64,000 nucleotides of DNA. It comes from Azoarcus sp. (GTDB taxonomy: Bacteria > Pseudomonadota > Gammaproteobacteria > Burkholderiales > Rhodocyclaceae). The notes beneath the pieces were generated by a model that did not search any database, was not told the DNA's origin, and was given only the letters and a program-made list of their open reading frames with translations. The stretch spans positions 3,977-67,976 of the forward strand of contig JAITMK010000132.1 in assembly GCA_031277415.1 (NCBI GenBank), read 5' to 3'. This document shows positions 25,035 through 42,951 of the stretch, one piece after another. Each line of letters opens with the position of its first letter. The stretch's first letter is position 1. The position numbers and the translations under genes are program-made.

Positions 25035-25110
<76 letters not shown>

Positions 25111-25122
25111 GGAAAGAACCGC

Positions 25123-25198
25123 GTCCCCATCGTCTAGAGGCCTAGGACACCGCCCTTTCACGGCGATAACCGGGGTTCGAATCCCCGTGGGGACGCCA
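25123..25198 (+). tRNA. tRNA-Glu (TTC); probable prophage attL
   Basis: GTCCCCA/TGGGGAC acceptor, CTTTCAC loop, encoded CCA; C27-A43 mismatch. Confidence 0.95.
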
Positions 25199-26672
25199 CC
25201 TGTACCCCGCTTTTTTGCGGGCTGAAGCGGAAAGTAATTTCCGCCTCAAACGTTGTGGCGTCAAGCGTGATGCCCTCTACCATCTCGCGCAGCATGTCGG
25301 CTAAGCCCTCCGGGGCTGCGCCGCCCATGTCGCCAACAATCCCTTTGAGCATCCGTTTCACGTCCGACGCGCTTATCTCTCTTAGCACACGCGCGTTCGC
25401 GTTTTCACTCTCCATCCCTTCAAGCCTTACCTTGAGCGTTTCTCGCTCATCTTCACAGGCCTCGATCTGGCGAAGTAGCGCATCCGGCGCGCTGGTCTCT
25501 GAGAGCAAATCTACGAGGCGAGTAATTTTCTTGTCGATTTCCGCAATCCTGCGTTTAACGCTCGCGATTTCATCCGTGTTACTGCCTGCCGTTTTCGACA
25601 GCTTGCGGTAGTGCTCTGCAATGGATGAAGCCATTTCATCAGAGCGCATCTGCTCGATGACGCTCTCGACAATCACGCGCTCAATGGTGTCTGCTTGGAT
25701 TCTCGCGCCTTTTCCGATGCGGTACGTCCCGCCGTCTCCACTCCACGCGATACCCTCAGGAGAGACAAGCAGACCCGAAAGCAGATAGACGCGCTTCGCA
25801 GGTTTTCCGCCACTTCGTTTTTTCTGCTCGACCTGCGCCAGTATCGCTTCTGCCTCTTCGTCAGATATCAGCGCATCGTGTGTGTTCCTTTGGATGATCC
25901 ATTCTGCGCGTGGACGGTACTTCTGCCCTCCGACGTATCCATTGCCTGACTTTTCCGCTGTGCGGTTCCAGACAGTATGCCCAGCGTAGGTGAGCGCATT
26001 GCGCTCGATCTCTAGCAAGCTTGTGGTAGGTATGCCCGTACCTGCCAATTCCAAGGCGCGTGAGCGCTTAAATCCGCGCGCTCTGTGCATGAGGTAAGCG
26101 CGAACCTTGACGGCTTCCTCATTCGGCGCCAAGCGCGATTTCGTAACGCGCTGCCCGTCCCTTACTGCGCCGGTTTCTTCGTACTGTAGACGGTATCCTC
26201 GTGGCGCGCGACCGCCTGCCCGCCAGCCTTGTCGGATGTTTTCCGCCATACCTGATAGACCTTTCGCCTTGCTCGTCAGGCTGTGCCATTCGTCCATAGC
26301 TTGCAGGATGGACTTTAGCAGCATTTCCGTGATGGGGTCAGCGTCCGGCAGGCTCTTGTAAATAATCTTGATGCCGCGCCGGGCGCATTCGTGCTCCTCG
26401 AAGATGATGGCGAGTGCACGCCGCCGGGCAATACGTGCTGTATCCAGCACAAGGATATGATCCCATTTTCTGTCGGCTGATCGGATAGCGCGAAGCAGGG
26501 ATTGAAACCCTGGCCTATCGTCGTCCTTACCGCTCTCTACCGCATCAGCGAACTCAGCGACAATTACGATACCGCGCGCGGAAGCAAGTTCTGACAGCGC
26601 ACGCCTCTGCGCGTCTATGGAAACGTCAGAACGATCTTTTGAAGATCGGAGGTAGCTGGCCGCGCGGATCAT
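25158..26672 (-). CDS. Large serine recombinase (integrase)
   Basis: YLRSS catalytic Ser, DTARIAR, GWRAGGRAPRGY, WIIQRNTHDALIS, coiled coil; ends ASPRGFEPRLSP over the tRNA. Confidence 0.93.
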   Translation of the reverse strand: MIRAASYLRSSKDRSDVSIDAQRRALSELASARGIVIVAEFADAVESGKDDDRPGFQSLLRAIRSADRKWDHILVLDTARIARRRALAIIFEEHECARRGIKIIYKSLPDADPITEMLLKSILQAMDEWHSLTSKAKGLSGMAENIRQGWRAGGRAPRGYRLQYEETGAVRDGQRVTKSRLAPNEEAVKVRAYLMHRARGFKRSRALELAGTGIPTTSLLEIERNALTYAGHTVWNRTAEKSGNGYVGGQKYRPRAEWIIQRNTHDALISDEEAEAILAQVEQKKRSGGKPAKRVYLLSGLLVSPEGIAWSGDGGTYRIGKGARIQADTIERVIVESVIEQMRSDEMASSIAEHYRKLSKTAGSNTDEIASVKRRIAEIDKKITRLVDLLSETSAPDALLRQIEACEDERETLKVRLEGMESENANARVLREISASDVKRMLKGIVGDMGGAAPEGLADMLREMVEGITLDATTFEAEITFRFSPQKSGVQVASPRGFEPRLSP

Positions 26673-31165: not shown

Positions 31166-31200
31166 ATTTTGATGAATTAAGAGAAGTCCGTATGAACGTT
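31166..31200 (-). promoter_or_regulatory. Putative late promoter, copy 3 (tail fibre/lysis)
   Basis: AACGTTCATACGG-N16-CAAAAT. Confidence 0.65.
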
Positions 31201-34200
31201 CAGTAACTGTATTCCTGGTACCCGAACACAGGCGCAAGCGGGTTAGACGTATCTCCCTCTATCATCTTCTCTATACCCTTGTACGATCTATTGAACTGCG
31301 TTGAGGGTAGACCAAGGTAAAGGCCAAGAACTTGAACAAATGATCTCCTGAGCGCACTATCTGCTTCGCCTTGCGATACCTGGATAAGGAAATTTCCAGT
31401 GTCGCCAATGACGCGAACACCAGCAGGGCCAGAGTACCCACGTAACCCCGGAACACCTGTAATCTGACGGGTAACGAAAGATAGCTCTCGCACAACCAGA
31501 AGCGTGCCCATCGCGTATTCAAGGTTGGCGTTCAGTATGCCTCTCAAGAATTTTTCAGGATCGTCCCATTCATCACCACCGCCCGGTATGAGCGCATTCA
31601 TCACGATGTAGGTGAGTATCGCCGGTAGGATAATGATTTGCGCAACGTCCTTTGTTAGGGCCGCGTACTCTGCTGGCGTCTCAGCTAGCATGTACTTGGC
31701 TGCCAGAAGGTTGAATGTACTATTGAAGTACGATGTGAACGGAGAAAGTACCCTCATCAAACCTTTTGAGCGATGCCATGCTGATAAATCCTTTATCTGC
31801 CCGCCTGCCTGAGAATCCAGTACCGCCTGTTCTGCCTGTGCAATGGCAGAAACCTCATCAGCACCGTTTGCAAGGGCTTTAGCTTTTGCACCGTAATATG
31901 TCGGCACGTCAACGAAGCGCTGACAGAATGAGATAAACAGGAACGAGTGATTTCTTATGGATGAAATAATCCCAGGCTCGTTGCTGCGTACCGTGTTCAT
32001 GACTTCGTTTATTTCTCGCATCAGTGTGCGTGCGCGGTTTGCCATCAACAGGCTTTCGTTTGCTGCGGCACGCGCTGCATCAATCGGCCCCATTCTCATG
32101 GATTCAGCCACACCATGCACGATCCACCGTGCACCAACCCTGTTGATACTCTGAACAATCCCGGTGAATTGCAGCGCTGAGGTTGTTGCGCTATAGCCCA
32201 TCGCAGCAATACCGACGTTTCGCGGTAGCCATGCACTTACTTCCTCTCCGTACTTCATAGCAAAAGATTCACCGATGGCGACATCTTTTATCCATTCCTG
32301 GAAACGTTTGTACATTTCCGCGCCACGTGTTTCACGCACTGCATTTTTAAATTCATTTGACCGTATCACTCTATTTGCGTTATGGACGGCCTCACGGTGA
32401 GATATGTCATGAATGATTTCATTCACGCCATTGAAGAGCGTTTGAAGACTAAGCAAGATTGGACGGTCAAACACCTCATTCACGCGCGGCTTTGCAAACG
32501 TTCTTCGCGTTGTAGCGGAAGTATAGGACGCTCTTTGTTCAAGTTTTGCTGTGTCTTCTCTTTCCTGCTGCTCTGCCCTGACGCTTGCTTTCGGGTCGTA
32601 CTTAATCGGGTAGTAACCACCGCGCAAGTGGTGTGTATTGCCTTCAGAATCTGTCACCGTGATTGCCTGCGGCTCTACCCATTGCGGCTCTCTCCCAAGC
32701 ATTCTGCGCTCAAGTGCCGCAATCAGCGGACGGTAAGTTTCGATAAAATCCCATATCTTTTGAACGGCTTCGACAGCTACAGGAGGTAGGTTTTTGAACG
32801 CTTCCTGTACATGCTGTGCTGTAAAGCCGTTACCGCCTTCAATGCGCTGCAAGTTTCCTTTATTCCCAGAATTGAGCGCGATGGAAAAAATTTGCTCCAT
32901 AGTGTAGCGCTTACCATTTCCGATGCTGTACTTCGCCGAGGTGATATTTCCTATGGCCTTCTTGACTGGTTTTAATATCTCATCGAGTGATACAAACCCA
33001 TCATGGCTCATCTGCGCTTTAAGATTCCCAGCATCATTTATGGGTTTGAGGAGCAAATCCCACAGCAACCCACCGTCCACGCCGCCGTCCAGTACGCGAA
33101 CATCCGTCGACGCCTTTATCTGACGAGAAAAGAAAATATCTATAGCCTCTTTCTTTTTCCCCCATGGTGTTGCCGGTGTTTCATTTACCCTTTCTTTTCC
33201 ACGATAGTTCTCACGGATATTTGACTGCATCGCGTCGAGCGAATCCAAAAAACGCTCATCACGCTTTCCTATTGCCGTGATCTGACGTACCGCTTCGCCA
33301 ACATCCAGCGCCTCTTCCAGAGTGAGTTTGCCCCACGGCTTTCTTTCGTTTTCGTCCGTTACGATATCGGCTAAATCGAGTTGTGGGCCTTCATTGTTTT
33401 CAAGCTGTTCCAGCCAGTCAGCAAGCGTCGTACCCTCTCTCGGCATTTCACCGGCAATAAACCTGTCAATGATGCGCCAGACCTGCTCAGAGTATCCAGG
33501 AAGGAGGTGGCGCCCGCGCTTGTTGTGGTTGAGAATGTATTTGTACTCACGCTTCGCACGGTTCAGAACCCTGTTCGCCTCATTTGAGAGCATCTGGTTC
33601 AAAACCTTTGTTCTCGTGAATGCCGCCGCCGTTTCAATGTCGCCTGACCTAAGCGCCTTTTCCGCCTCGGTTGCGTTCTTCTGCGCAGTCGCAGAAAAGC
33701 GTTGCGGATTGATATCATCAATCATCATGCGCGCGATAGCGACACGCGCGTATTCACGCGCTGCCGCGTTCATGAACCGCTGGCCGCCATACGCTTTTTC
33801 GAGCGCCGAAAGTTCTGTCTGAGAGAACCGCACCATTGCATCATTGGCTATCGCCTCATCTGCCGCGCGTTCTATCGCCTGCGGGGTCGCAAGCTCGCCG
33901 TGTTGTTCAAGCATCCGCGCGTCTGCAATTTGCGCAATGGCCTGCTCCGGCGGTGTCGCTGCGGCAAGCGCGTCAACGAGTTCAGCGCCGTTGTCGAACC
34001 CGAACATCCCGGCCACGATTTCAGGATGAAGACCGTCTTTCGCGGTCATGCCGCGTTCTCTCAAATTTGCGGAAGATTCTTTCCCAAAATCATCCAGTGC
34101 GCTAATATCCAACCGGCCAGCGCCAAGAGCCTGCGGGTTAGCAACCTGCTCGCCCGCCATTATCTCTTCAAGTATTCCGTATTCGTATGCGCTCGAATAC

Positions 34201-37200
34201 TGTGGCACCCCACGCAATTCATCGAAGAACGCACTCTCGAAGTACGTATTCGAGAAACTTGGATCATCAGGCAGGTAGCCAAGTTCCGTCAGCGCTTCTT
34301 CCATCTTCGAGACGCTCAATCCGCCCTTGTTGCGGATGACGATCTTCCAGCCCTTCGGAAGTGTTGCCTTCTCTTCCGGCTTTAACCCCCACAGGCTTGC
34401 AAGCTCCTCCCGGTTCATACCGCCAAGTTTCGATATAGCCTCGAACAGCGAATCAATCGATTCATCCACCTTACCGCGTGGCGTTGCTTTGCGTTGCTGT
34501 GGCGGTTTACCAATCCTGTCCTGCGGCCTGAGTGGCGCAGTCAGAAATTGCCATGCGCGATAAACGGGCTGACTCATCACCTCGCGCCGAGCATCCATCT
34601 CAGCCTGCGCGCGCGCCTGCGTTGCTTGGCGTTGTAGCCGCTTTATCTCTCGTCCTCTGGCGTAATGCAACCATCGCATGTCGCGCAGTGCCTTTGCCTG
34701 CATTGCGTCAGTTGCAACGCCTACGGCATCAGAGAACTGCTGCAAATATTCGTCGAACTCTTCCGGAGTCATGTTGGCGAGTTCTGCGTTATCAATCAGA
34801 GGCATCGATCCTCGCGCGCGCATCACTCTATTTATTTCCGCCTCAGAAGCAATCATCCGGTCAAACACGGCTCGTACAGCAGGCGTGAGTGTGACGTTAT
34901 GCGCCTTGAGTGACTTGTAGACGGAGCGGATGAAGTTCGACAGCCGACGAAATGCACGCATCAGCGCGGAAGATGGCGCAACACCCTCATGGATGTACCG
35001 CTCAAACCCTCTTGCAAGCTTCTCATGGTGTGGCGTTTGCTCATCAACCGTCATCTGATTCCACGCATCGATGGACGGCACGCCGAACCAGTCGAGCAAT
35101 GCTTGCGTGTCTTCAATGATTCGCCGCTCGCCTGCTGTGATGTCTGCTTCAGGCTTCATCGTGAATTGCTGCGACAAGTCGGCGTAGATGCTCAGGAACA
35201 TATGCCCGAACTCGTGTATTGCTGTGGATGAATCCTGCGTCTGCGTCAGTAAGATGAGGCGTTCTTCAAAACTCGTAAATCCTCGTGGAACGTCTTGCTG
35301 GACTGACTGGTAATAGTTCTCGCCAAGCCGATTGACAAGACGGGCACGAGAGAATACTCTTCTGCTGCCGTGGGAAAACGAGCCAATGGAATTGTCCCAG
35401 TAACTCCCCATCGCCGAGACCGCCCCCGCCCTTGTGGCCGCTGCGGTCTCACTGTTTTCTGGCCTTGACCTATCTCGTACATACACAGGCGATTTAGTAT
35501 TTGCTTTAAGTAATGCGGCAAGCCTTGCTTTAAGCCTATCCCATCCGCTTTCTACTACATCTCCTGCACCATCAGTAACGTTGTGCTGTGGAGTAATTGT
35601 TCTTATCTCTCCGTTACGGATACCAACGATTATTGGCTCGCCGTTCTGCGTCATCGCGTCAATGAGAACGTTCACACCACCTTCCGGTGCCGGATAGGAA
35701 AGCAACGGATCATGAAGGAAATCTGTAAGGTTCGTCACTACTTCTGACGGTATTTCGTGCCCATGATCACGCACAATCTTCTGCCAGTACGTAGGAGAAA
35801 ATGAAATCTCACCGCTTCTTACGCCCATCTCTCTAAGAACAGCAGGTGTTTTCATGCGTACCGTCTTGCCACGGTTTAGGTCGCCAATAGCATTGCGCCA
35901 GCGCGCAATTTCCGCTTCCAGCGTAGCCTGCGCAGCTTGGCTGAACCCTTCTCCTTGAACAATTCCACGAAGAATCCTGTGACCGTACTGCGCGTAGAAC
36001 GCTTCTGTCGTCACGCCTATATTTTGTGCAATCGTGTTGAACATTGACGAAGCCAATAACGCAACGTCAGCCGACTCTTTCGCCGGTCGGCCTGCCGCCT
36101 CAAGCTGCGTTCGGATATCATCCATGATCACGACACGCTGCGCGTCGAGCGCCGCCAATCTCGCATCCTCTGCCATGGCGCGCTCTATCGTCTCTCTCGT
36201 CTCTGTGTCTGCGTCAAACGCCTCACGCTGTGCGGGCGTTGGGATGTCTGGGTTGAACGTGGTGTGGAGTCGTATTTGATCAATTATTGCACTGTTCGGC
36301 GCTACGTTATTCGCAAACTCACGAAGGGATATCTGAACATACCCGTTTTCAGCAATCGGTTCCTGTAGCTGCTGCGCGGCTTCTGGTGAGACTGCTGAAA
36401 GCTGCTCTGATAGACCTTGCTGTGCAAACGCCTCGGATGAAATATAGACGGTTTCTACTTCGCTTTCTCTTCCTACGGCTTCCACAAAATCTGCGTATGC
36501 TTTTGGATCTCTCCTGATAAGATTAATGTCTTTAGAAAGATTAATTAATTGATCTAAAAGTCGTTGATGAAGTTCAGATACCCCTCCAAGAGATTCTTTT
36601 CTCAGCAGGTTGTCGATGCTACTCATGATAGCAACATTGCCTGCACTTCCGACGATGGTTGCTACAAGCGTCTGATAGGCCGCATCCGGGCGTTCTGAAA
36701 GGTACTCTACAAGATGCTGACCAAAGCCTTTTTCAGGGTGTTGAGCAGCCCGTATAAAAACCTGACGATTAAAATCTTGAATGAGCGTGGTTACTTGCTC
36801 TTGCGGCACCTCTTTCAACATAACATTGAATGCTGTTTTTAAGACGCCTGAGCGGTTAGCAATTCCACTTAGCGCAGCCATAAATGGGGCACGCTCTAGC
36901 AATGCTTCAGGAACGCCTTGTGACAGACCGTACAATGCCGCTCTTCCGGGTGAATAGCCCGCTCTTAATCCTTCTCCGTATTCTTCACCTCCTACCATGC
37001 CGCCAAACATTACCAATGGACCCCATGATCCAGCAGAATAAGCAGGAAGCGACATTACAAACTGCGTTATAGATTCAATGCCAGAATAAATAGCAGATTC
37101 AGTTTTTCCAGGATTTCCTATTACGCGCCAATCCGTGCTCTCTGCACGATGTTTCCATGCTTCTTCGCTTCTCTCCCATACCTTGCCCGCTCTACGAAAA

Positions 37201-37745
37201 GAGTCTTTATGTCCCCCAGGAATAAGATTTAACCACGGGTCAAATATCGGCGATAGAACATTTGTCATTGCAGCAGATATCCAACCGCTAAGACCTTCTT
37301 CACCTCTTAAATATCCTCTACCGGAGGCTCTGCCAATATTACGTACAATCTCCTCTAAACCGCCTAGCATTTCAATATCGTCGTGCGCAATGGCTGCAAA
37401 ATTTGGATCTGTCATTCTCCGCTGAAGTTGCGGGTAGTTCCGCATGACACTTCTTACCGCACGCACACGATTATGGTTGACGTAGGCATCCTGGTTTCTT
37501 TCTATAACAGAGACATCTACGCCGTAAATCTTAGCAAGGTTCTGCGCTTCTGCTGCCTTGTCAGGATTGCGCGGCATCGTCCGCTCAAGATACTCCTGAA
37601 ATTGAGCCGCCTGTTGTTCTTGCTCCTGTCTATGTCTTTTTGCGAAATTCTCAAACCATTCATCTTCAGATAAACGTTTATTTACAATAGGACGGCTTGT
37701 TAAGTCTATATTGCCTTGCTCAATAATATTATCTTGGTTTTCCAT
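31200..37745 (-). CDS. Large internal virion (ejection) protein, T7 gp16-position, polyvalent
   Basis: About 2180 aa; HEFGH zincin motif; BECR/MuF-C-like segment; likely ATG 37745 overlapping upstream stop. Confidence 0.75.
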   Translation of the reverse strand: MENQDNIIEQGNIDLTSRPIVNKRLSEDEWFENFAKRHRQEQEQQAAQFQEYLERTMPRNPDKAAEAQNLAKIYGVDVSVIERNQDAYVNHNRVRAVRSVMRNYPQLQRRMTDPNFAAIAHDDIEMLGGLEEIVRNIGRASGRGYLRGEEGLSGWISAAMTNVLSPIFDPWLNLIPGGHKDSFRRAGKVWERSEEAWKHRAESTDWRVIGNPGKTESAIYSGIESITQFVMSLPAYSAGSWGPLVMFGGMVGGEEYGEGLRAGYSPGRAALYGLSQGVPEALLERAPFMAALSGIANRSGVLKTAFNVMLKEVPQEQVTTLIQDFNRQVFIRAAQHPEKGFGQHLVEYLSERPDAAYQTLVATIVGSAGNVAIMSSIDNLLRKESLGGVSELHQRLLDQLINLSKDINLIRRDPKAYADFVEAVGRESEVETVYISSEAFAQQGLSEQLSAVSPEAAQQLQEPIAENGYVQISLREFANNVAPNSAIIDQIRLHTTFNPDIPTPAQREAFDADTETRETIERAMAEDARLAALDAQRVVIMDDIRTQLEAAGRPAKESADVALLASSMFNTIAQNIGVTTEAFYAQYGHRILRGIVQGEGFSQAAQATLEAEIARWRNAIGDLNRGKTVRMKTPAVLREMGVRSGEISFSPTYWQKIVRDHGHEIPSEVVTNLTDFLHDPLLSYPAPEGGVNVLIDAMTQNGEPIIVGIRNGEIRTITPQHNVTDGAGDVVESGWDRLKARLAALLKANTKSPVYVRDRSRPENSETAAATRAGAVSAMGSYWDNSIGSFSHGSRRVFSRARLVNRLGENYYQSVQQDVPRGFTSFEERLILLTQTQDSSTAIHEFGHMFLSIYADLSQQFTMKPEADITAGERRIIEDTQALLDWFGVPSIDAWNQMTVDEQTPHHEKLARGFERYIHEGVAPSSALMRAFRRLSNFIRSVYKSLKAHNVTLTPAVRAVFDRMIASEAEINRVMRARGSMPLIDNAELANMTPEEFDEYLQQFSDAVGVATDAMQAKALRDMRWLHYARGREIKRLQRQATQARAQAEMDARREVMSQPVYRAWQFLTAPLRPQDRIGKPPQQRKATPRGKVDESIDSLFEAISKLGGMNREELASLWGLKPEEKATLPKGWKIVIRNKGGLSVSKMEEALTELGYLPDDPSFSNTYFESAFFDELRGVPQYSSAYEYGILEEIMAGEQVANPQALGAGRLDISALDDFGKESSANLRERGMTAKDGLHPEIVAGMFGFDNGAELVDALAAATPPEQAIAQIADARMLEQHGELATPQAIERAADEAIANDAMVRFSQTELSALEKAYGGQRFMNAAAREYARVAIARMMIDDINPQRFSATAQKNATEAEKALRSGDIETAAAFTRTKVLNQMLSNEANRVLNRAKREYKYILNHNKRGRHLLPGYSEQVWRIIDRFIAGEMPREGTTLADWLEQLENNEGPQLDLADIVTDENERKPWGKLTLEEALDVGEAVRQITAIGKRDERFLDSLDAMQSNIRENYRGKERVNETPATPWGKKKEAIDIFFSRQIKASTDVRVLDGGVDGGLLWDLLLKPINDAGNLKAQMSHDGFVSLDEILKPVKKAIGNITSAKYSIGNGKRYTMEQIFSIALNSGNKGNLQRIEGGNGFTAQHVQEAFKNLPPVAVEAVQKIWDFIETYRPLIAALERRMLGREPQWVEPQAITVTDSEGNTHHLRGGYYPIKYDPKASVRAEQQEREDTAKLEQRASYTSATTRRTFAKPRVNEVFDRPILLSLQTLFNGVNEIIHDISHREAVHNANRVIRSNEFKNAVRETRGAEMYKRFQEWIKDVAIGESFAMKYGEEVSAWLPRNVGIAAMGYSATTSALQFTGIVQSINRVGARWIVHGVAESMRMGPIDAARAAANESLLMANRARTLMREINEVMNTVRSNEPGIISSIRNHSFLFISFCQRFVDVPTYYGAKAKALANGADEVSAIAQAEQAVLDSQAGGQIKDLSAWHRSKGLMRVLSPFTSYFNSTFNLLAAKYMLAETPAEYAALTKDVAQIIILPAILTYIVMNALIPGGGDEWDDPEKFLRGILNANLEYAMGTLLVVRELSFVTRQITGVPGLRGYSGPAGVRVIGDTGNFLIQVSQGEADSALRRSFVQVLGLYLGLPSTQFNRSYKGIEKMIEGDTSNPLAPVFGYQEYSY

Positions 37746-40047
37746 CCCACGGCTCCGGAACTTCATCATCTGAAGGTATTCTGCCAGGTCTTTCTGGCGT
37801 TTTTATTATTGTTGCACTCATAACGTTTTTATGTTTTGTTTTATCAAGATAATCCCTATATTCTTTAGCAATATAACGCATATTTGCATTCGGGTTAATA
37901 CTTTTTATTTTCTCAACAAAGTCAATAGGAATTGAAGAAATGCGCACTTCACGACCATCATCTAGTTTAATATAAAGATTTCCTTGTTCTCCTTCAGATA
38001 TACCCTTATAAAATGAAATTTCATTATCAGGCGAAAATGTATCACGCCTCATTACTTTATCATCAACAATTCTATTTAGAATTTCATCAAGATCTTTTCC
38101 TGTCGCTGTCCGCCCATTAATTGCTTTAAATTCATAAATTTCTTCCTGTACTCTGTACATAAATTCTATGAATTCCGGCTTCTCTTTTTCATTCTTTTCA
38201 GGCTCTTCGTTAAGTATTCCAATCTTTCTTGCAGTTCTAACAACAAGATTAATATGTGACAACAATTCTATACCTTTATTATTATCTTTATTATCATTGT
38301 TATTATCTTTATTATCATTGTTTATAAGATTTGCGCGCAACTTGGTTATTTCATCAAACTTGTTTCCAAGCCTTGATTTCAGGTTCGTCATTTCTGCATC
38401 AGTCAAGCTTCTCACAACATCATGGTTGGTGATGAGATGGACGTAAATTGCAGGATCTGGATCAGTCGGTCCTTTACGTAGCGCCTCTATCTGGCTCTTT
38501 ACTGATGACCTGTCCGTCTCGTGAATAGCCTCCCTGATAGACATGGGTAGTTCGTCGAACTTAAGCCCGGTTTGCTCGGAGTATCGTATCGCTGCTGCTT
38601 TTGCTTCTTCTCGCTCTTGCTTGACAGCATCATTCTGCGCCGTGTGCCGTTCTTTTACGTATTCAATTGCCCGTTTTCGTGCACGAGATGATAGGCCAGA
38701 AGCGTCTATATGCTCGATATATCCTTCAAGCGTTGGTCTTGCTGGCCTACCTCCTCCGCTTCCGAGTAAGCGCATGTTCTTCTCAACGTAGTCTTTCGTT
38801 TGCTTCCTGTTATCAGGCGTTCTATCATCGTTATTAAGCTGCCAGAACCAGTCGGATTCCTGTGTCCCTTGTTCTGCCTTTTTAGCCTTGGATACAGCAG
38901 CGTCAACCCACTTCTCTCCAGCGTTGTACGCTGCCCATGCCTTACCGATATTCCCGCCATACTTATCGACAAGTGCGGCAAGAAGCTCACTGCCTACCCG
39001 GTTATATTCTTCCGGTGTATCGTTTTGCGCTGGCTTTATACCGTGCCCAGGTTTTTTAGCCGTATCCGGCATGACCTGCATTTTGTACATTGCGCCAACT
39101 GGTGATCGCACAGGCTGACCACCTTCAATAAAATCCCTGTTACCGCTTTCTGACTGAGCGGTAATATTAAGCACCCTATCAAAATCGTTAGGTTTATACG
39201 CTTTCTCTCTATCTGAAATAAGAGTACTACCGAAAGCAATTCCTTTTTCATCCTCAACGAAATTAGATAAGGTGATATTATCCTTTATCTTATGCTGATG
39301 CTCCATGCCGCCATTGAACTGGTTGAAGTACGCAACCGCTCCGACCAAGTCGCCTTCATCTATCATCGCATTCAGGTTGTTCGAGTGCGCAGCAGAGACA
39401 ACGCCCTTCGCCTTCCTTCTCGCCTCGTCAATGTGCATCCCTGTGATAGACGAAAACCGCTCCGCCTCTTCAATGGCGCGTCGAGAGGCAGTTTCGACCG
39501 CTTCCGGGTCATTCCTCAACGCGATGATCTCGTCCGCAGCCTGCGCGATAATCGCCTGAGAGGCGCTTGCTTTCCACTTCTGCGCCTCGTTGTGCTCATG
39601 GCGCATCGCGCCCTCTTTGAAGCGCAAGAGTTCTTTTTGCTTGAACGCCTCGAAATACGCTCGCTGTCTGTCGTTTCCGAGCCCTCTTGAAACCTCAGCA
39701 CTGAATTCATCAAGGCGCTTCGTGTATTCATCAGAGAGTGCCTTACCCTCTTTTGGCAGCGCTGCTGCACCTTGCAGTGCGCCATATCCGTCCTGGCCTA
39801 ACTGCAATTCTATGGCCTTTTGCCGCACCTCTCGCGCTGCGTCATCCAAGCGCAGATTGTCCATTTCGTCACGGCGCTCATTTTCAATCTTGAAGAGCGC
39901 ACGCCCTGCATCGGTCATCACGCCCGCAAGCTGTGCATGTTGTGCAGATGGGTCTACGGACGGTACAGCAGCATGAAACCGGTTAGCTGTAGGTTGATTC
40001 AGCCCGACTGACGGCGCGTTATCGTTATAGGTGGGTACAGTTGGCAT
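37729..40047 (-). CDS. Internal virion protein with lytic transglycosylase (SLT) domain
   Basis: MPTVPTY start typical of this family; AQSES, MQVMPDTA, AYNAGE SLT motifs. Confidence 0.8.
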   Translation of the reverse strand: MPTVPTYNDNAPSVGLNQPTANRFHAAVPSVDPSAQHAQLAGVMTDAGRALFKIENERRDEMDNLRLDDAAREVRQKAIELQLGQDGYGALQGAAALPKEGKALSDEYTKRLDEFSAEVSRGLGNDRQRAYFEAFKQKELLRFKEGAMRHEHNEAQKWKASASQAIIAQAADEIIALRNDPEAVETASRRAIEEAERFSSITGMHIDEARRKAKGVVSAAHSNNLNAMIDEGDLVGAVAYFNQFNGGMEHQHKIKDNITLSNFVEDEKGIAFGSTLISDREKAYKPNDFDRVLNITAQSESGNRDFIEGGQPVRSPVGAMYKMQVMPDTAKKPGHGIKPAQNDTPEEYNRVGSELLAALVDKYGGNIGKAWAAYNAGEKWVDAAVSKAKKAEQGTQESDWFWQLNNDDRTPDNRKQTKDYVEKNMRLLGSGGGRPARPTLEGYIEHIDASGLSSRARKRAIEYVKERHTAQNDAVKQEREEAKAAAIRYSEQTGLKFDELPMSIREAIHETDRSSVKSQIEALRKGPTDPDPAIYVHLITNHDVVRSLTDAEMTNLKSRLGNKFDEITKLRANLINNDNKDNNNDNKDNNKGIELLSHINLVVRTARKIGILNEEPEKNEKEKPEFIEFMYRVQEEIYEFKAINGRTATGKDLDEILNRIVDDKVMRRDTFSPDNEISFYKGISEGEQGNLYIKLDDGREVRISSIPIDFVEKIKSINPNANMRYIAKEYRDYLDKTKHKNVMSATIIKTPERPGRIPSDDEVPEPWDGKPR

Positions 40048-40061
40048 AAATTACGCCTCGA

Positions 40062-40205
40062 TCATTTTAATGCGCTCACAAGCGCACTAATTAAGTACCC
40101 AGTACCAAACATTGCGAAAACCAGCCATAGGAGCAGGAATTTCCATGTAGAAAGCTTCTCTGTCATACCCATCAATTCCTTCAAGGATTTGATAAAATTA
40201 ACCAA
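40062..40205 (-). CDS. 47-aa membrane protein (moron)
   Basis: AAGGAG 6 nt before TTG; hydrophobic FLLLWLVFAMFGTGYLISALVSAL; AT-rich. Confidence 0.6.
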   Translation of the reverse strand: MVNFIKSLKELMGMTEKLSTWKFLLLWLVFAMFGTGYLISALVSALK

Positions 40206-40282
40206 GTTCTTCTCCTTGTCTCCTTCAAGGGGTTGATACCAGAGAGCCTTATGTGTTTGCAGCACATGAGGCTTTCGTTTTA
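40205..40282 (+). ncRNA. Candidate cis-antisense (sar-like) RNA
   Basis: TGnTAAAAT extended -10 at 40190-40198; hairpin 40245-40273 followed by TTCGTTTTATTT; complementary to RBS/start of 40062-40205 ORF. Confidence 0.5.
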
Positions 40283-40286
40283 TTTG

Positions 40287-40907
40287 TCACCACCTTCTAA
40301 AAAGACCTTCGCCAAAACCGCTTGGCGGGATGATCCCAGTGCCGCCATTCATACCAATAGCGGGCTGGCTACCGCCAGAAGCAGTGATGGACGAAGGTGT
40401 CGTGTTTTGCGGATTCAGCGCGTACCAGCTTGCAGCAACCTGTGTCGCGCCACCGAGCAGCGACGTAATGCCTGCCATCGCAGGGCTTACAGCGCCAGCA
40501 GACGAAGATAACGCGCGAGATTGCGCAACGTAGTTCATTCCCTCGACGCGATGCCCCCACGCGCTCATGTCCGCGTTGTAGAGGATAGTCCCCTTATCGA
40601 TGTCTTTGAGCAGTTCCGCGTCAGCAAGGGTCTGTCTGTCAATCTTTGTGCCGCTTGCACCCATCGCCGCGCGCTGCTTCCCCATCAACTGACCAGCGCG
40701 CATCGTGAGTTGCATGACTTGATGCTGGCCTTGCATCATCGCGCCCTGTGCGGATAGCTCAGAAAGTCGCGCGTTGATTTCCGCCATTGCGGATTGATGC
40801 TTCAGGATATTTTTTTGATTTTTTGCGCTAATGTACGATGAGAACGCGCTATTGATTGCGCCCAACCCCATAACATACGGCGAATAATTTGTTGTCATAT
40901 TATCCAC
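40287..40907 (-). CDS. Internal virion protein (T7 gp14-position)
   Basis: Ala/Gly-rich, QRAAMGASG motif, position after tail tube genes. Confidence 0.7.
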   Translation of the reverse strand: MDNMTTNYSPYVMGLGAINSAFSSYISAKNQKNILKHQSAMAEINARLSELSAQGAMMQGQHQVMQLTMRAGQLMGKQRAAMGASGTKIDRQTLADAELLKDIDKGTILYNADMSAWGHRVEGMNYVAQSRALSSSAGAVSPAMAGITSLLGGATQVAASWYALNPQNTTPSSITASGGSQPAIGMNGGTGIIPPSGFGEGLFRRW

Positions 40908-42951
40908 CTACCGATACTTCAGCGACGATATTAGACAGCGTAAGAGGTAGCGGGTCACGTTGCTGTACGACAATTCGGCCATGCTCGCCCCATGACGGAG
41001 ATAGGAGTAGATCAATCTCTCCCGTCCTGATCCGTGGCGGCGACCCCATCGGTTCATCTGTCCTTTGTTTGTACATAACAAGTTCATCAGCAGACGGACC
41101 CGCCCAAATACCGGATGATCGAACCGTCCTGAGTTTCACCCTGTTCACATTCTTCGTCCTGCCAAGGCCAAGCGCATGATCTATCTGCGCGGCAATCGGC
41201 AAGGTTTCAATCTCTGAAACGTATGGGAGCCCGATGTGAACGACGCTTGCCGGGTAGTCAATCGTCACGCTACCGCCTGTGACAATTTTTCGCGGAAAGA
41301 CCTTTCCATCCCCAATGATCGATACCTCTTCTCCCTCCAGATGGTCAAGACCTATAAATACATCCTCTGGTTCACCCCTATACGTAAGACCAGAATCAAC
41401 AAAAAAAGCATCTTCAAGGCTATTGAACATCCGGTCTTCAAGACATTCGACGTACCTTACCGTTTGCCCGTTTATTTCACGCCGGACAATCACGTAAGTA
41501 ACATCGCGCTCTTCTTCTGCTACAACACAAAGCGACTCGAAATCTCCCTTTGTCTCATGAACATGCCATGCTGCGATCTGTTGTTCTGGGATGTATGTCA
41601 TCCCAAGCATAACGCCTGACACCATCACGCAGAAGGCTACAGGTATCGGAGCTTTTGAGAGCGCCATCACGCTGATATAGTCATGTTCGAATAGATGCGA
41701 AGCCCTGAGTGAGATATCTGAATTTTTCCACCCGTTAGCCTGCCCTCCATAGCCAAGCTCACGAACATGTCCACCTCGCGAAGCGCTATACAGGATGATA
41801 TTGTTCACCACAATCGGGCGAACTTCTGATGATCCTTCGTATGCCTGCGGAATAACATTGAAAGATGTTTGCGTTATCGCGTCGCTATTAACAGACGTGA
41901 CGATGTATTCAGCGCTTGATGTCAGAAGAACAAGGCTTGTTATTGGAACCATATGAAGGATGTCGCTCATATGGAGCGCGGCAACTTCCTTGCTTATCCT
42001 GTCGTCGTCACGCATCGGCCTTCTAAAACTCAAGGACGATTCTGTCCCGGTCTTCGTCATCCAGATTCGCTGCGGCCTGTACTTTGTGCTTGCGAACGCA
42101 CGACGTTGCTCGAAATAGGTTGTCGTCCTTGGGTAATTACCGTTTCCAGAAAATACGTTTTCGTATATCGGCGGCGTCATCGACATGTCAGGAGAGATAT
42201 TGTCATCGATGATGGATAGCTCGCCATTCGTCTGCCCGATATACCCTAGTAGCCCGGCTTTCATCTTGTACACAAAATATTGTGTCGCGCCAGAGACTGC
42301 CTGCCATGAAATGATGTTTGATGCGCCATTTTCGAATAGGTTGCCGTTCACCTTGGTTATTACAGAAGCAACGGACTCGTATCCGTCTGAGGTTGCCGCT
42401 GTTACCGCATAAGCTATTTCAAACTGTGTTCCTGTCTGGTTCAATTTCTGCACTGTCGGCGCAGGTGGCGGTAAGATTGTCGGCGAGAAAATGATTGCCT
42501 CAATCCTCCAGTCTGTCGCGCCGTAGCGCCTCAACTCCATCGGCGGGTAGTTCTGATGAACCAATGTCAGCACGTCCTCTTTTTGGACGTACTGAAGGTT
42601 CATCAGGTCACCTTCCTGGTACGGTGACGCAATTTCGTAGGGTTCACCATTTGAACCAAGTAGCGTTTTCGCTTGCGTGTGGAATCTGAAGTACTGGTGT
42701 CCAGCCTCAATTGCCATCGTCTGCGTCAGAGAGAACGTAAACGGGATCATCGCCGCGCGCCGGTCGTTGTATTTCGCAGGACGAACAAACCGCAGCCCTG
42801 CCCTATTCTCTACGGGCCCTTGAGGTCTCACAATGAAGTTCACGCATTTCGCTAAACCTGATTGATATTTCGCATCATCCGGGCGACCAGACATTTCAGG
42901 ACTGACAACACCACCTGAAAACGAAAGCTGAACGGTCCTGATCGACGGCAT
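40900..42951 (-). CDS. Tail tubular protein B / nozzle (T7 gp12-like)
   Basis: SFSGGVVSPEMSGRPDD, YFEQRRAFA, IAAWHVHET, VHIGLPY, QRDPLPLTL. Confidence 0.85.
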   Translation of the reverse strand: MPSIRTVQLSFSGGVVSPEMSGRPDDAKYQSGLAKCVNFIVRPQGPVENRAGLRFVRPAKYNDRRAAMIPFTFSLTQTMAIEAGHQYFRFHTQAKTLLGSNGEPYEIASPYQEGDLMNLQYVQKEDVLTLVHQNYPPMELRRYGATDWRIEAIIFSPTILPPPAPTVQKLNQTGTQFEIAYAVTAATSDGYESVASVITKVNGNLFENGASNIISWQAVSGATQYFVYKMKAGLLGYIGQTNGELSIIDDNISPDMSMTPPIYENVFSGNGNYPRTTTYFEQRRAFASTKYRPQRIWMTKTGTESSLSFRRPMRDDDRISKEVAALHMSDILHMVPITSLVLLTSSAEYIVTSVNSDAITQTSFNVIPQAYEGSSEVRPIVVNNIILYSASRGGHVRELGYGGQANGWKNSDISLRASHLFEHDYISVMALSKAPIPVAFCVMVSGVMLGMTYIPEQQIAAWHVHETKGDFESLCVVAEEERDVTYVIVRREINGQTVRYVECLEDRMFNSLEDAFFVDSGLTYRGEPEDVFIGLDHLEGEEVSIIGDGKVFPRKIVTGGSVTIDYPASVVHIGLPYVSEIETLPIAAQIDHALGLGRTKNVNRVKLRTVRSSGIWAGPSADELVMYKQRTDEPMGSPPRIRTGEIDLLLSPSWGEHGRIVVQQRDPLPLTLSNIVAEVSVGG

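What the first reader, a model, noticed from the sequence alone, without database searches (positions are those of the whole stretch)
40062..40286. sar-like antisense RNA over the RBS of a small membrane protein inserted between ejection-protein genes
Seen: minus-strand 47-aa hydrophobic ORF (AAGGAG-N6-TTG). On the plus strand there is an extended -10 TGaTAAAAT (40190-40198) with predicted +1 near 40205, exactly at the ORF start codon. The transcript would carry TCTCCTT anti-SD sequences and end at hairpin AGCCTTATGTG-N7-CACATGAGGCT followed by a T-rich tract (about 78 nt). Established: P22 sar RNA silences ant in this way near the ejection genes, and type I toxin-antitoxin loci pair a small membrane toxin with a cis-antisense RNA. 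Inference: an undescribed antisense-controlled membrane toxin or exclusion moron.
Basis: partly seen in the sequence, partly recalled or inferred. Interest (0 to 1): 0.75.

Follow-up and report, generated by a model that had tools for sequence, protein, structure and literature searches.

The report
Mobile small-membrane-protein cassette with antisense RNA
A 230-base mobile cassette in a prophage's DNA-ejection genes encodes a conserved 47-residue membrane protein and, by comparative evidence only, an 80-base antisense RNA over its ribosome-binding site; the same unnamed cassette is in many unrelated phages and about a fifth of complete E. coli genomes.

Summary
The 47-aa ORF is a real gene. 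It matches PHROG 6632 (unknown function, E 1e-13), and relatives show 11-15 synonymous against 0-2 non-synonymous changes in the membrane segment.

The ORF and its upstream hairpin form a ~230-bp cassette. It sits co-oriented in late operons of unrelated phages: endolysin|Rz, baseplate V|W, tail K|I, and here gp14|gp15 of a BPP-1-like podovirus prophage. Four of six related podoviruses have no insert at this junction.

The antisense RNA is supported by comparison only:
- All 12 lineages keep TGnTA(A/T)A(A/C)T in codons 3-6, using codon choices that are free elsewhere in the ORF.
- Synonymous change is suppressed across codons 2-17.
- In most relatives the hairpin is a two-way terminator. In the window it lost its sense T-run and gained a sense-strand C·A mismatch, but kept a perfect plus-strand stem and T-run (-34.5 against -19.7 kcal/mol).

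No transcript data could be obtained, because the window comes from a termite-gut metagenome. Toxicity is untested. The resemblance to sar is functional, not homology (18.3 bits against a cut-off of 43).

Verdict: an undescribed candidate family resembling type I toxin-antitoxin or sar/ant systems. Interest is moderate to high, pending RNA evidence.

The parts
40062..40205 (-). Small ORF of 47 aa plus stop: MVNFIKSLKELMGMTEKLSTWKFLLLWLVFAMFGTGYLISALVSALK. It has a charged, amphipathic N-terminal 22 residues and a C-terminal membrane-spanning segment.
   Evidence: PHROG 6632, E 1.3e-13, profile 3-42 of 45. Homologues of 45-49 aa occur in many phages. Mean Kyte-Doolittle value is 2.08 for residues 23-46 against -0.08 for residues 1-22. 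Purifying selection: 15 synonymous to 2 non-synonymous, and 11 to 0, in codons 18-45 of related pairs.
40206..40241 (-). 5' leader of the ORF. It holds the ribosome-binding site AAGGAG (complement of 40212-40217), 6 nt before the TTG, and a second AAGGAG (40220-40225) in the loop of a small stem-loop (40208-40236). The stem CCCCTTG/CAAGGAG partly sequesters the working ribosome-binding site.
   Evidence: Sequence. The stem-loop is predicted on both strands. A stem at the equivalent place in relatives has different sequences and some two-sided changes (pairs 67/81, 68/80, 70/78).
40190..40198 (+). Extended -10 promoter element TGATAAAAT, antisense to codons 3-6 of the ORF. Predicted +1 is near 40205. 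There is no good -35 (CATCAA at 17-bp spacing).
   Evidence: The same element sits at the same codons in all 12 lineages: TGCTAAAAT, TGATAAACT or TGCTAATAT. By the family's own codon usage, the chance of keeping the two needed synonymous choices in all 12 is 2e-10 if the lineages were independent.
40205..40286 (+). Predicted cis-antisense RNA of about 80 nt. It has a 5' anti-ribosome-binding-site stretch UUCUUCUCC and stem-loop 1 with a UCUCCUU loop, followed by the terminator. It is fully complementary to the start codon, ribosome-binding site and leader of the ORF.
   Evidence: Fold of -34.5 kcal/mol, z = -6.47. Predicted lengths in relatives are 74-89 nt. Below-threshold, full-length resemblance to the two-hairpin countertranscript model ctRNA_pGA1 (30.5 bits, gathering score 45) and to sar (18.3 bits, gathering score 43). 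No transcript evidence.
40242..40286 (+). Intrinsic-terminator-like hairpin (stem 40242-40257 / 40261-40276, 16 pairs, 3 G·U) with tail GTTTTATTTG. It is oriented for the plus (antisense) strand only.
   Evidence: top hit. Hairpin alone: -22.2 kcal/mol on the plus strand against -12.1 on the minus strand. T count in the 9 nt after the stem: 7 on plus against 3 on minus. In 15 relatives the homologous hairpin has T-runs on both sides.
40287..40907 (-). Upstream flanking gene: gp14-like internal virion (ejection) protein, 206 aa.
   Evidence: PHROG 418 internal virion protein, E 4e-22. Pfam T7_gp14 below cut-off. tblastn hit to BPP-1 Bbp12.
37729..40047 (-). Downstream flanking gene: gp15-like internal virion protein with a lytic transglycosylase (SLT) domain, 772 aa. 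It starts 14 nt after the small ORF's stop.
   Evidence: Pfam SLT, E 2.5e-10; PHROG 10475. In relatives L114, L116, L118 and L119 this gene directly abuts the gp14-like gene.

Best explanation
The region is a ~230-bp mobile cassette (a moron) inserted between the gp14-like and gp15-like ejection-protein genes of a BPP-1-like podovirus prophage. It has four parts:
1. A hairpin terminator.
2. A short leader with a strong ribosome-binding site.
3. A gene for a 47-aa tail-anchored membrane protein (PHROG 6632).
4. Inferred: an ~80-nt cis-antisense RNA. It would start at an extended -10 promoter built into codons 3-6 of the gene, run across the start codon and ribosome-binding site, and stop at the hairpin.

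The protein gene has no promoter of its own and always points the same way as the host late operon. It is therefore transcribed only with the phage late genes.

The inferred role of the antisense RNA is to pair with the leader. This would block ribosome binding, probably starting with contact between the UCUCCUU loop and the AAGGAGA loop, and would probably trigger duplex cleavage. Stray or early transcripts would then give no protein, and the protein would appear only when late transcription outruns the antisense RNA. This is the logic of P22 sar/ant, IS10 RNA-OUT/RNA-IN and type I toxin-antitoxin pairs such as SymR/SymE.

In most host phages the hairpin also terminates sense transcription, giving a double lock. 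In this podovirus the essential gp15, gp16 and fibre genes lie downstream. Here the sense terminator function has been lost and the antisense terminator kept.

Shown: the gene, its selection, its mobility, the conserved motif and the strand asymmetry of the hairpin.
Inferred: the transcript, its regulatory effect, and any harmful or membrane-active role of the protein.
For: Real, selected protein:
- PHROG 6632, E 1e-13.
- 16 cluster representatives among 1.8 billion proteins.
- Codons 18-45 show 15 synonymous to 2 non-synonymous, and 11 to 0, in related pairs.

Mobile cassette:
- The same hairpin, leader and ORF lie between endolysin and Rz in Stx/lambdoid phages, SPN3UB and others.
- They also lie between baseplate V and W in SEN34, Actinobacillus pPE4 and others.
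- They lie downstream of tail gene K in lambda-like phages of enterics and Pseudomonas.
- One copy sits in a non-phage-looking intergenic site.
- Homology begins ~12 nt before the hairpin and ends at the stop codon.
- 1190 of 5426 complete E. coli genomes carry a match.
- At gp14|gp15, four related podoviruses have no insert.
- Cassette GC is 0.41 against 0.51 for the late region.

Antisense promoter:
- TGnTA(A/T)A(A/C)T sits at codons 3-6 in all 12 lineages, including a Pseudomonas phage.
- Codons 3, 4 and 5 have 100% codon identity, against 0.2-0.5 beyond codon 18.
- Joint chance of the needed codon choices is 2e-10 under independence.
- Synonymous change is suppressed in codons 2-17, for example 1 against 12 changes, matching the footprint of a whole promoter.
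- No conserved sense-strand RNA structure explains this.

Antisense terminator:
- The A-run before the hairpin (the antisense T-run) is conserved in every copy.
- In the window the sense T-run is gone and a C·A mismatch appears on the sense strand. The plus strand keeps 16 pairs and a T-run: -34.5 against -19.7 kcal/mol, z -6.5 against -2.2.
- The other podovirus cassette, L112, shows the same bias: -25.5 against -17.1.
Against: - No RNA evidence of any kind. The window comes from a termite-gut metagenome with only DNA runs. E. coli RNA runs gave unstranded contigs or strains lacking the cassette.
- The -35 is poor: TCGCAA or TCGAAT in relatives, CATCAA in the window.
- In 13 of 15 relatives the hairpin folds as well or better on the sense strand, with more G·U pairs there. 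For most copies the sense terminator could therefore be the selected function, with the upstream A-run merely helping it.
- Constraint in codons 9-13 could instead reflect an internal ribosome-binding-like GGAG 9-10 nt before the invariant Met14.
- Lineages are not independent, so the 2e-10 figure overstates significance.
- The strand-asymmetry argument rests on one or two podovirus lineages.
- Nothing shows that the protein is toxic.
Confidence: 0.55

Rival explanations
1. There is no antisense RNA. The cassette is simply a terminator or RNA-stability hairpin followed by a late-expressed small membrane protein. The TGnTAAAAT motif and low synonymous change at the 5' end would then come from the conserved N-terminal peptide ([DN]-F-[SI]-K), AT-rich codons and the usual constraints on translation initiation regions. 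In the window the hairpin would be a decayed sense terminator kept as an intercistronic processing or stability element.
For: - In most relatives the hairpin is a canonical sense-strand terminator with a strong T-run, and it is more stable on the sense strand.
- The -35 is weak.
- The 9-mer is not rare by itself.
- There is no transcript evidence.
- There is no Rfam family.
Against: - The needed codon choices (Phe TTT or Ile ATT; Ser AGC or Ile ATC) are invariant in 12 lineages, while the same amino acids use mixed codons elsewhere in the ORF.
- The rare Arg codon CGA is invariant at codon 12.
- A decaying hairpin would not keep a perfect 16-pair stem with G·U pairs and a T-run on the plus strand only.
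- No conserved sense-strand structure reaches into the coding 5' end.
Confidence: 0.3
2. This is a dual-start lysis or membrane-timing protein. The conserved nucleotides in codons 9-14 would be an internal ribosome-binding site (GGGAG, AAGGAG or GAAGGA) serving the invariant Met14. Translation would then give a long form (45-47 aa) and a short form (32-34 aa) with opposed activities, as with holin and antiholin. An antisense RNA, if present, would affect only the long form.
For: - Met14 is invariant, and a ribosome-binding-like motif lies 9-10 nt upstream in every lineage, including the window and the Pseudomonas copy.
- One gene caller annotated the 36-aa form (P0002).
- Many copies sit inside lysis cassettes, between endolysin and Rz.
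Against: - The motif coincides with conserved [RK]-E residues, so it may be a coding effect.
- The cassette also sits in tail, baseplate and ejection-gene clusters.
- This reading does not explain the invariant codons 3-5 or the antisense-only hairpin in the window.
- No holin family matches.
Confidence: 0.1
3. The ORF is a chance reading frame, and the region is only an intergenic spacer with a hairpin.
For: - The ORF is short, starts with TTG and is unannotated in most records.
Against: - Profile match of E 1e-13.
- Conserved length, start position and ribosome-binding site in more than 12 lineages.
- A strong excess of synonymous over non-synonymous change.
Confidence: 0.02

Closest known systems
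P22 sar RNA / ant (Rfam RF00262)
   Same: A short (~69 nt; here ~80 nt predicted) cis-antisense RNA in a temperate phage. It starts inside the 5' end of its target gene, covers the ribosome-binding site and ends at an intrinsic terminator in the upstream intergenic region. It lies next to ejection-protein genes. (The description of sar is from my own knowledge of Liao et al. and Wu et al. 1987.)
   Different: There is no sequence or structure homology (18.3 bits against a gathering score of 43). The sar target is a ~300-aa antirepressor with its own promoter Pant in immI. Here the target is a 47-aa membrane protein with no promoter of its own, and the unit is a mobile cassette found in many phage types.
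Type I toxin-antitoxin pairs with 5'-overlapping antitoxin RNA (SymR/SymE; also Sib/Ibs, Sok/hok, and prophage pairs such as SR4/BsrG and RCd/CD toxins)
   Same: A small hydrophobic protein gene whose translation start region is covered by a short, terminator-ended antisense RNA from a constitutive-looking promoter. It is carried on mobile elements. SymR is 77 nt and overlaps the ribosome-binding site and start codon (own knowledge; reviews PMC2887945, PMC8309996).
   Different: No toxin promoter lies in the cassette, so expression depends on the host late operon. The membrane segment is C-terminal rather than N-terminal. There is no homology to any known toxin family. Toxicity and RNA are untested.
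IS10 RNA-OUT / RNA-IN
   Same: The geometry matches. An outward-facing promoter sits inside the first codons of the ORF and gives a ~70-nt stem-loop RNA complementary to the ribosome-binding site and start of the mRNA. The element is mobile (own knowledge).
   Different: The IS10 target is a transposase. RNA-OUT does not end at a shared two-way terminator. There is no homology.
Phage morons (HK97/HK022 type; e.g. HK97 gp15, Cor)
   Same: An extra gene is present or absent between otherwise adjacent late genes. Its base composition differs. It occurs in unrelated phages. It often encodes a small membrane protein.
   Different: Classical morons have their own promoter upstream and a terminator downstream of the gene, and are expressed in the lysogen. 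Here the terminator is upstream and the only promoter-terminator pair lies on the opposite strand.
Gifsy-1 isrK-orf45-anrP locus (PMC4825925)
   Same: An intrinsic terminator lies immediately before a 45-aa ORF in a lambdoid prophage. Read-through makes a translationally controlled mRNA, and a short RNA controls translation of the small ORF.
   Different: IsrK is a sense RNA acting in trans on the read-through transcript. Neither the protein search of phage records nor the Rfam search detected any homology. orf45 serves translational coupling to an antirepressor.

Membership tests
PHROG 6632 (phage protein family of unknown function) | Significant match to the family profile over most of its length | tested here: met
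   E 1.3e-13, 51.6 bits, profile positions 3-42 of 45.
Type I toxin-antitoxin system | Small (<60 aa) hydrophobic membrane protein | tested here: met
   47 aa. Residues 23-46 have a mean Kyte-Doolittle value of 2.08.
Type I toxin-antitoxin system | Antisense RNA with its own promoter and terminator, complementary to the toxin mRNA | tested here: inconclusive
   A conserved extended -10 and an antisense terminator are predicted. No transcript data could be obtained.
Type I toxin-antitoxin system | Toxin gene transcribed from its own promoter within the locus | tested here: not met
   Homology among copies begins ~12 nt before the hairpin. Only ~30 nt separate the hairpin from the start codon. 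No sigma-70-like site was found.
Type I toxin-antitoxin system | Protein is growth-inhibiting when expressed and is neutralised by the RNA | not testable with these tools
   Needs expression experiments.
Type I toxin-antitoxin system | Homology to a described toxin family | tested here: not met
   No hit in Pfam, NCBIfam or PADLOC.
sar RNA (Rfam RF00262) | Covariance-model score at or above the gathering score | tested here: not met
   18.3 bits against 43, E 0.61 in a 551-nt search.
sar RNA (Rfam RF00262) | Antisense to the ant antirepressor ribosome-binding site in an immI region | tested here: not met
   The target is a 47-aa membrane protein between gp14-like and gp15-like genes.
ctRNA_pGA1 (Rfam RF00236) | Covariance-model score at or above the gathering score | tested here: not met
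   30.5 bits against 45. The match is full length (1-79) but shares only the two-hairpin architecture.
Phage moron | Present or absent between genes that are adjacent in related phages, and found in unrelated phages | tested here: met
   Absent in L114, L116, L118 and L119. Present in at least 5 unrelated contexts.
Phage moron | Own promoter upstream and terminator downstream of the gene | tested here: not met
   The terminator is upstream and nothing follows the stop codon. The only predicted promoter-terminator pair is on the opposite strand.
Holin | Match to a holin family | tested here: not met
   No Pfam or PHROG holin match. A dual-start motif is possible but untested.

The most novel reading that the evidence does not exclude
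PHROG 6632 cassettes would be a new, widespread family of promoterless 'late-operon hitchhiker' modules. A membrane-active small protein is made only when a phage commits to late transcription. A lysogen-expressed antisense RNA, with its promoter written into the protein's own first codons, and a two-way terminator keep the protein silent otherwise. The cassette moves between siphoviruses, myoviruses and podoviruses of Enterobacterales, Pasteurellaceae, Pseudomonas and gut symbionts. Its terminator is re-tuned strand by strand to fit whether the host phage has antitermination.
Probability: 0.35. Interest if true: 0.75.

Novelty: new member of a known kind. Interest (0 to 1): 0.6.

Why it matters
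If the antisense RNA is real, this would be a new family of antisense-controlled small membrane proteins. It sits unannotated in roughly a fifth of complete E. coli genomes, including the lysis cassettes of many Stx phages, and in phages of several other genera.

It would be a compact example of a promoter embedded in coding sequence. It would also show a terminator whose two directions are selected separately according to the host phage's transcription strategy.

The system is directly testable in laboratory E. coli lysogens. It could bear on lysis timing, prophage silencing or exclusion.

If the RNA is not real, the finding reduces to a widespread small late membrane protein of unknown function, which is still an annotation gap.

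Tried and rejected
- **Near-identical phage DNA.** Megablast of 39000-41500 against phage records found nothing.
- **Word-indexed protein search.** It returned only the window's own protein. phmmer over 1.8 billion representatives was needed.
- **Transcript evidence, window.** Only DNA runs from a termite-gut metagenome hold the window.
- **Transcript evidence, E. coli copy.** RNA runs are kept as unstranded contigs that run straight through the cassette. The four raw-read runs offered either lack the cassette or have reads only on Rz.
- **Literature.** Peptide strings occur in no held paper. General searches for type I toxin-antitoxin systems, prophages and lysis gave nothing on this family.
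- **Published Hfq-bound sRNAs of E. coli O157 Sakai** (Tree 2014, Table S2). None could be tied to the cassette. Prophages Sp5, Sp6, Sp10 and Sp15 carry a different insert (an antirepressor plus another 48-aa ORF) at the endolysin|Rz junction. EcOnc11 and EcOnc33 lie elsewhere. EcOnc22 is an unrelated antisense RNA in the tail I|J spacer.
- **Gifsy-1 orf45 (PMC4825925).** Considered as a possible homologue and set aside: neither the protein search of phage records nor the Rfam search of relatives' loci detected any link.
- **Rfam.** Only below-threshold architectural matches were found.
- **NCBIfam and PADLOC.** No hits.
- **RefSeq label.** The 'lysis protein' name under the E. coli match belongs to the neighbouring Rz gene, not the small ORF.
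- **Homology of the L112 54-aa ORF to the family.** Not supported (hhalign probability 0.5%).
- **67-aa GTG-start form of the ORF.** Rejected (and the family alignment).
- **Structure prediction.** Not run, because a 47-aa single-helix model would not discriminate between the hypotheses.

Full report
**1.
The minus strand carries AAGGAG (complement of 40212-40217), six bases, then TTG (40205-40203). This opens a 47-codon frame ending at 40062. The plus strand carries TGATAAAAT at 40190-40198. It also carries the hairpin AGCCTTATGTG-N7-CACATGAGGCT (40245-40273) followed by TTCGTTTTATTTG.

The terminator scan lists this hairpin, extended to 16 pairs at 40242-40276, as the best terminator-like site in 37-43 kb, on the plus strand. 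An RNA from 40205 to 40288 folds into two stem-loops at -34.5 kcal/mol (z = -6.5). The complementary strand reaches only -19.7 kcal/mol (z = -2.2).

The 9-mer promoter motif is not improbable on its own: 2 found against 1.55 expected in the window. There is also no -35 worth the name. The window sequence alone therefore proves little.

**2. Setting.**
The window is bacterial DNA from a termite-gut metagenome. It holds a prophage whose late genes all lie on the minus strand:
- portal
- GP7-type capsid
- Bbp16-like protein
- tail tube A and B
- gp14-like internal virion protein (40287-40907)
- the small ORF
- a 772-aa protein with an SLT domain (37729-40047)
- a 2189-aa protein
- a collagen-repeat fibre

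**3. The ORF is a real gene of a small, unnamed family.**
It matches PHROG 6632 (unknown function) at E 1.3e-13. The profile begins at the TTG, not at the upstream GTG. Pfam, NCBIfam and PADLOC give nothing. An exhaustive phmmer search of 1.8 billion cluster representatives finds 16 hits. Most are 45-49 aa proteins, or longer calls that contain the 45-aa sequence.

All share the same plan: a charged N-terminal ~20 residues with invariant F4, K6, E10, M14 and E16-K-L, then W-K-F and a hydrophobic C-terminal segment. Related pairs differ mostly by silent changes in the membrane segment: 15 synonymous against 2 non-synonymous, and 11 against 0. The protein is therefore under purifying selection.

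**4. The ORF travels with its hairpin as a cassette.**
tblastn and locus retrieval place the family in unrelated settings, always pointing the same way as the surrounding late genes:
- Between endolysin and Rz in Stx-converting and other lambdoid phages, SPN3UB, and an enterobacterial prophage group.
- Between baseplate V and W in SEN34, Actinobacillus pPE4, and prophages of Brenneria, Pantoea, Symbiopectobacterium and Yersinia.
- Downstream of tail gene K in lambda-like prophages and two Pseudomonas phages.
- In a site with no phage genes nearby (closest relative, 60% identity).

The aligned DNA is homologous from ~12 nt upstream of a GC-rich hairpin to the stop codon, and not beyond. There is no room for a sense promoter between the hairpin and the ribosome-binding site.

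A 236-nt query covering the E. coli version finds matches in 1190 of 5426 complete E. coli genomes. The small ORF is usually unannotated, and the 'lysis protein' label in the results belongs to the adjacent Rz gene.

At the gp14|gp15 junction, four related podoviruses have the two genes abutting. One has a different hairpin plus a 54-aa membrane ORF, whose homology is not demonstrable. A second sample carries a copy identical to the window. The cassette GC is 0.41 against 0.51 for the late region. 'Inserted moron' is therefore well supported.

**5. Evidence for an antisense promoter.**
On the antisense strand every lineage has an extended -10 at codons 3-6:
- TGCTAAAAT in most copies, including the Pseudomonas phages
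- TGATAAAAT in the window
- TGATAAACT in the closest relative
- TGCTAATAT in two others

The -11 A, the -7 T and the TG are invariant. These bases depend on free codon choices: Phe TTT or Ile ATT rather than a C-ending codon, and Ser AGC out of six codons or Ile ATC. Elsewhere in the same ORFs, Phe is 50:50 TTT to TTC, and Ser AGC is 30%. Keeping both choices in 12 lineages has a chance of 2e-10 if the lineages were independent. They are not fully independent. Codon identity beyond codon 18 is only 0.2-0.5, however, which is close to saturation.

Synonymous change is suppressed across codons 2-17, for example 1 change against 12, and 1 against 10. That span is about the footprint of a promoter reading outwards. 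It includes an invariant rare Arg codon CGA at the position of a weak -35 (TCGCAA or TCGAAT, 17-bp spacer). A consensus fold of the sense strand finds only the hairpin and a small leader stem, and nothing that reaches into the coding 5' end.

Transcription from this promoter would begin opposite the start codon. It would give a 74-89-nt RNA in every member.

**6. Evidence from the hairpin.**
In 15 relatives the hairpin has an A-run before it and a T-run after it. It is therefore a terminator in both directions. In most of them it is slightly more stable on the sense strand, with G·U pairs there. That fits a double lock on the small ORF. By itself, though, it would allow the view that only sense termination matters.

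The window copy discriminates between these views. The sense T-run has become CTCTGGTAT, and one pair is C·A on the sense strand but U·G on the plus strand. The plus strand keeps a 16-pair stem and GTTTTATTTG: hairpin -22.2 against -12.1 kcal/mol, and 7 against 3 T's in the tail.

A podovirus of this type must transcribe through this point to reach gp15, gp16 and the fibre. Loss of sense termination is therefore expected. Retention of a perfect antisense terminator is expected only if something is terminated on that strand. The other podovirus cassette (L112) shows the same bias and keeps TAAAAT at the same codons.

**7. Predicted RNA.**
The window RNA would have three parts. The first is a single-stranded 5' UUCUUCUCC. 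The second is a stem-loop presenting UCUCCUU, complementary to an AAGGAGA loop on the mRNA. The third is the terminator.

Rfam has no family for it. The best below-threshold matches are two antisense RNA models: ctRNA_pGA1 (30.5 bits against a gathering score of 45, full length) and sar (18.3 bits against 43). This is a likeness of architecture, not membership.

**8. What is missing.**
I could obtain no stranded RNA data for any family member. I also found no paper mentioning the protein. Mapping to the published Hfq-bound sRNAs of E. coli O157 Sakai failed, because the Sakai prophages examined carry a different insert at the endolysin|Rz junction. Toxicity, membrane activity, exclusion or a role in lysis remain conjecture.

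An internal ribosome-binding-like motif 9-10 nt before the invariant Met14 is conserved. It could mean a second, shorter product. This might coexist with the antisense model or explain part of the nucleotide constraint.

**9. Verdict.**
The gene, the insertion and the 'undescribed' status are solid. The antisense RNA is the best-supported reading (about 0.55), but it rests on comparative inference. 'sar-like' and 'type I toxin-antitoxin-like' describe how the cassette probably works, not what family it belongs to. The cassette fails the sar model and lacks a toxin promoter.

It is best filed as a new member of the known kind 'antisense-controlled small membrane protein on a mobile element'. 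Its unusual trait is that it rides promoterless in phage late operons behind a terminator whose two directions evolve separately.

Noticed in passing
L110 10383-10529; L120 19749-19895; L121 6125-6271; L122 6887-7033 (E. coli O157 Sakai prophages Sp5, Sp15, Sp10, Sp6): At the endolysin|Rz junction, where other E. coli prophages carry the PHROG 6632 cassette, the four Sakai prophages examined carry an antirepressor gene followed by a 147-nt ORF directly before Rz. Translating the Sp5 copy gives an unrelated 48-aa membrane protein (MGWLMISDKLITLVKSLCVLVGISFLVMLVAIFFSTAWRVLTLSGLVG). The junction looks like a moron hot spot where small membrane ORFs recur.
   Followed up: partly
L112 3640-3885 (and L113): A relative of the window's podovirus has, at the same gp14|gp15 junction, a different hairpin plus a 54-aa membrane ORF (MNFNVNKEARKV...). 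Its hairpin is also more stable on the antisense strand (-25.5 against -17.1 kcal/mol), and TAAAAT lies antisense to codons 2-4. Homology to the family could not be shown (hhalign probability 0.5%).
   Followed up: partly
window 37782-37799 (+), with tail to 37809: A second plus-strand terminator-like hairpin with a T-run (TGCCAGGTCTTTCTGGCG TTTTTATTAT). It is antisense to the late genes, just upstream of the junction between the SLT-domain gene and the 2189-aa gene. A weak promoter-like site overlaps it.
   Followed up: no
window 40327-40310 (-): A marginal sense-strand terminator-like hairpin (CGCCAAGCGGTTTTGGCG, then AAGGTCTTTT) inside the last codons of the gp14-like gene, just upstream of the cassette. 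It may be chance: 8 such sites were found in the scanned region against 6 expected.
   Followed up: no
window 31200-37769 (-): The 2189-aa putative ejection protein contains an HEFGH zinc-protease-like motif. Its identical copy in L111 is recorded with an LPD22 domain. Relatives carry ART-PolyVal or acetyltransferase hits instead, so this looks like a polyvalent effector-like giant internal protein.
   Followed up: no
window 25035-25198 and 25158-26672: tRNA-Ala and tRNA-Glu genes abut, and the second overlaps, a 504-aa minus-strand ORF at the left edge of the low-GC phage-like block. This is probably the prophage end and integration site.
   Followed up: no
L120 2715-2775 (+) (Sakai 2902714-2902774): The published Hfq-dependent ~85-nt RNA EcOnc22 (Tree 2014, Table S2) lies antisense to the tail operon in the I|J spacer of Sp15. 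It sits next to a 39-aa ORF that is itself preceded by an A-run and a hairpin. The layout is analogous to the cassette, but there is no homology.
   Followed up: partly
proteins P0004, P0005, P0011: Three long proteins (498-1317 aa) match residues 3-27 of the small protein in 5-6 repeated stretches each. This may be a repeated amphipathic motif or a compositional artefact.
   Followed up: no
L089 4738-5376: The closest relative of the window protein (P0003, 60% identity) sits alone in ~260-nt and ~230-nt spacers between two secreted-protein genes, next to metabolic genes, in wastewater and other metagenome contigs. This is the one copy seen with no phage genes nearby.
   Followed up: partly
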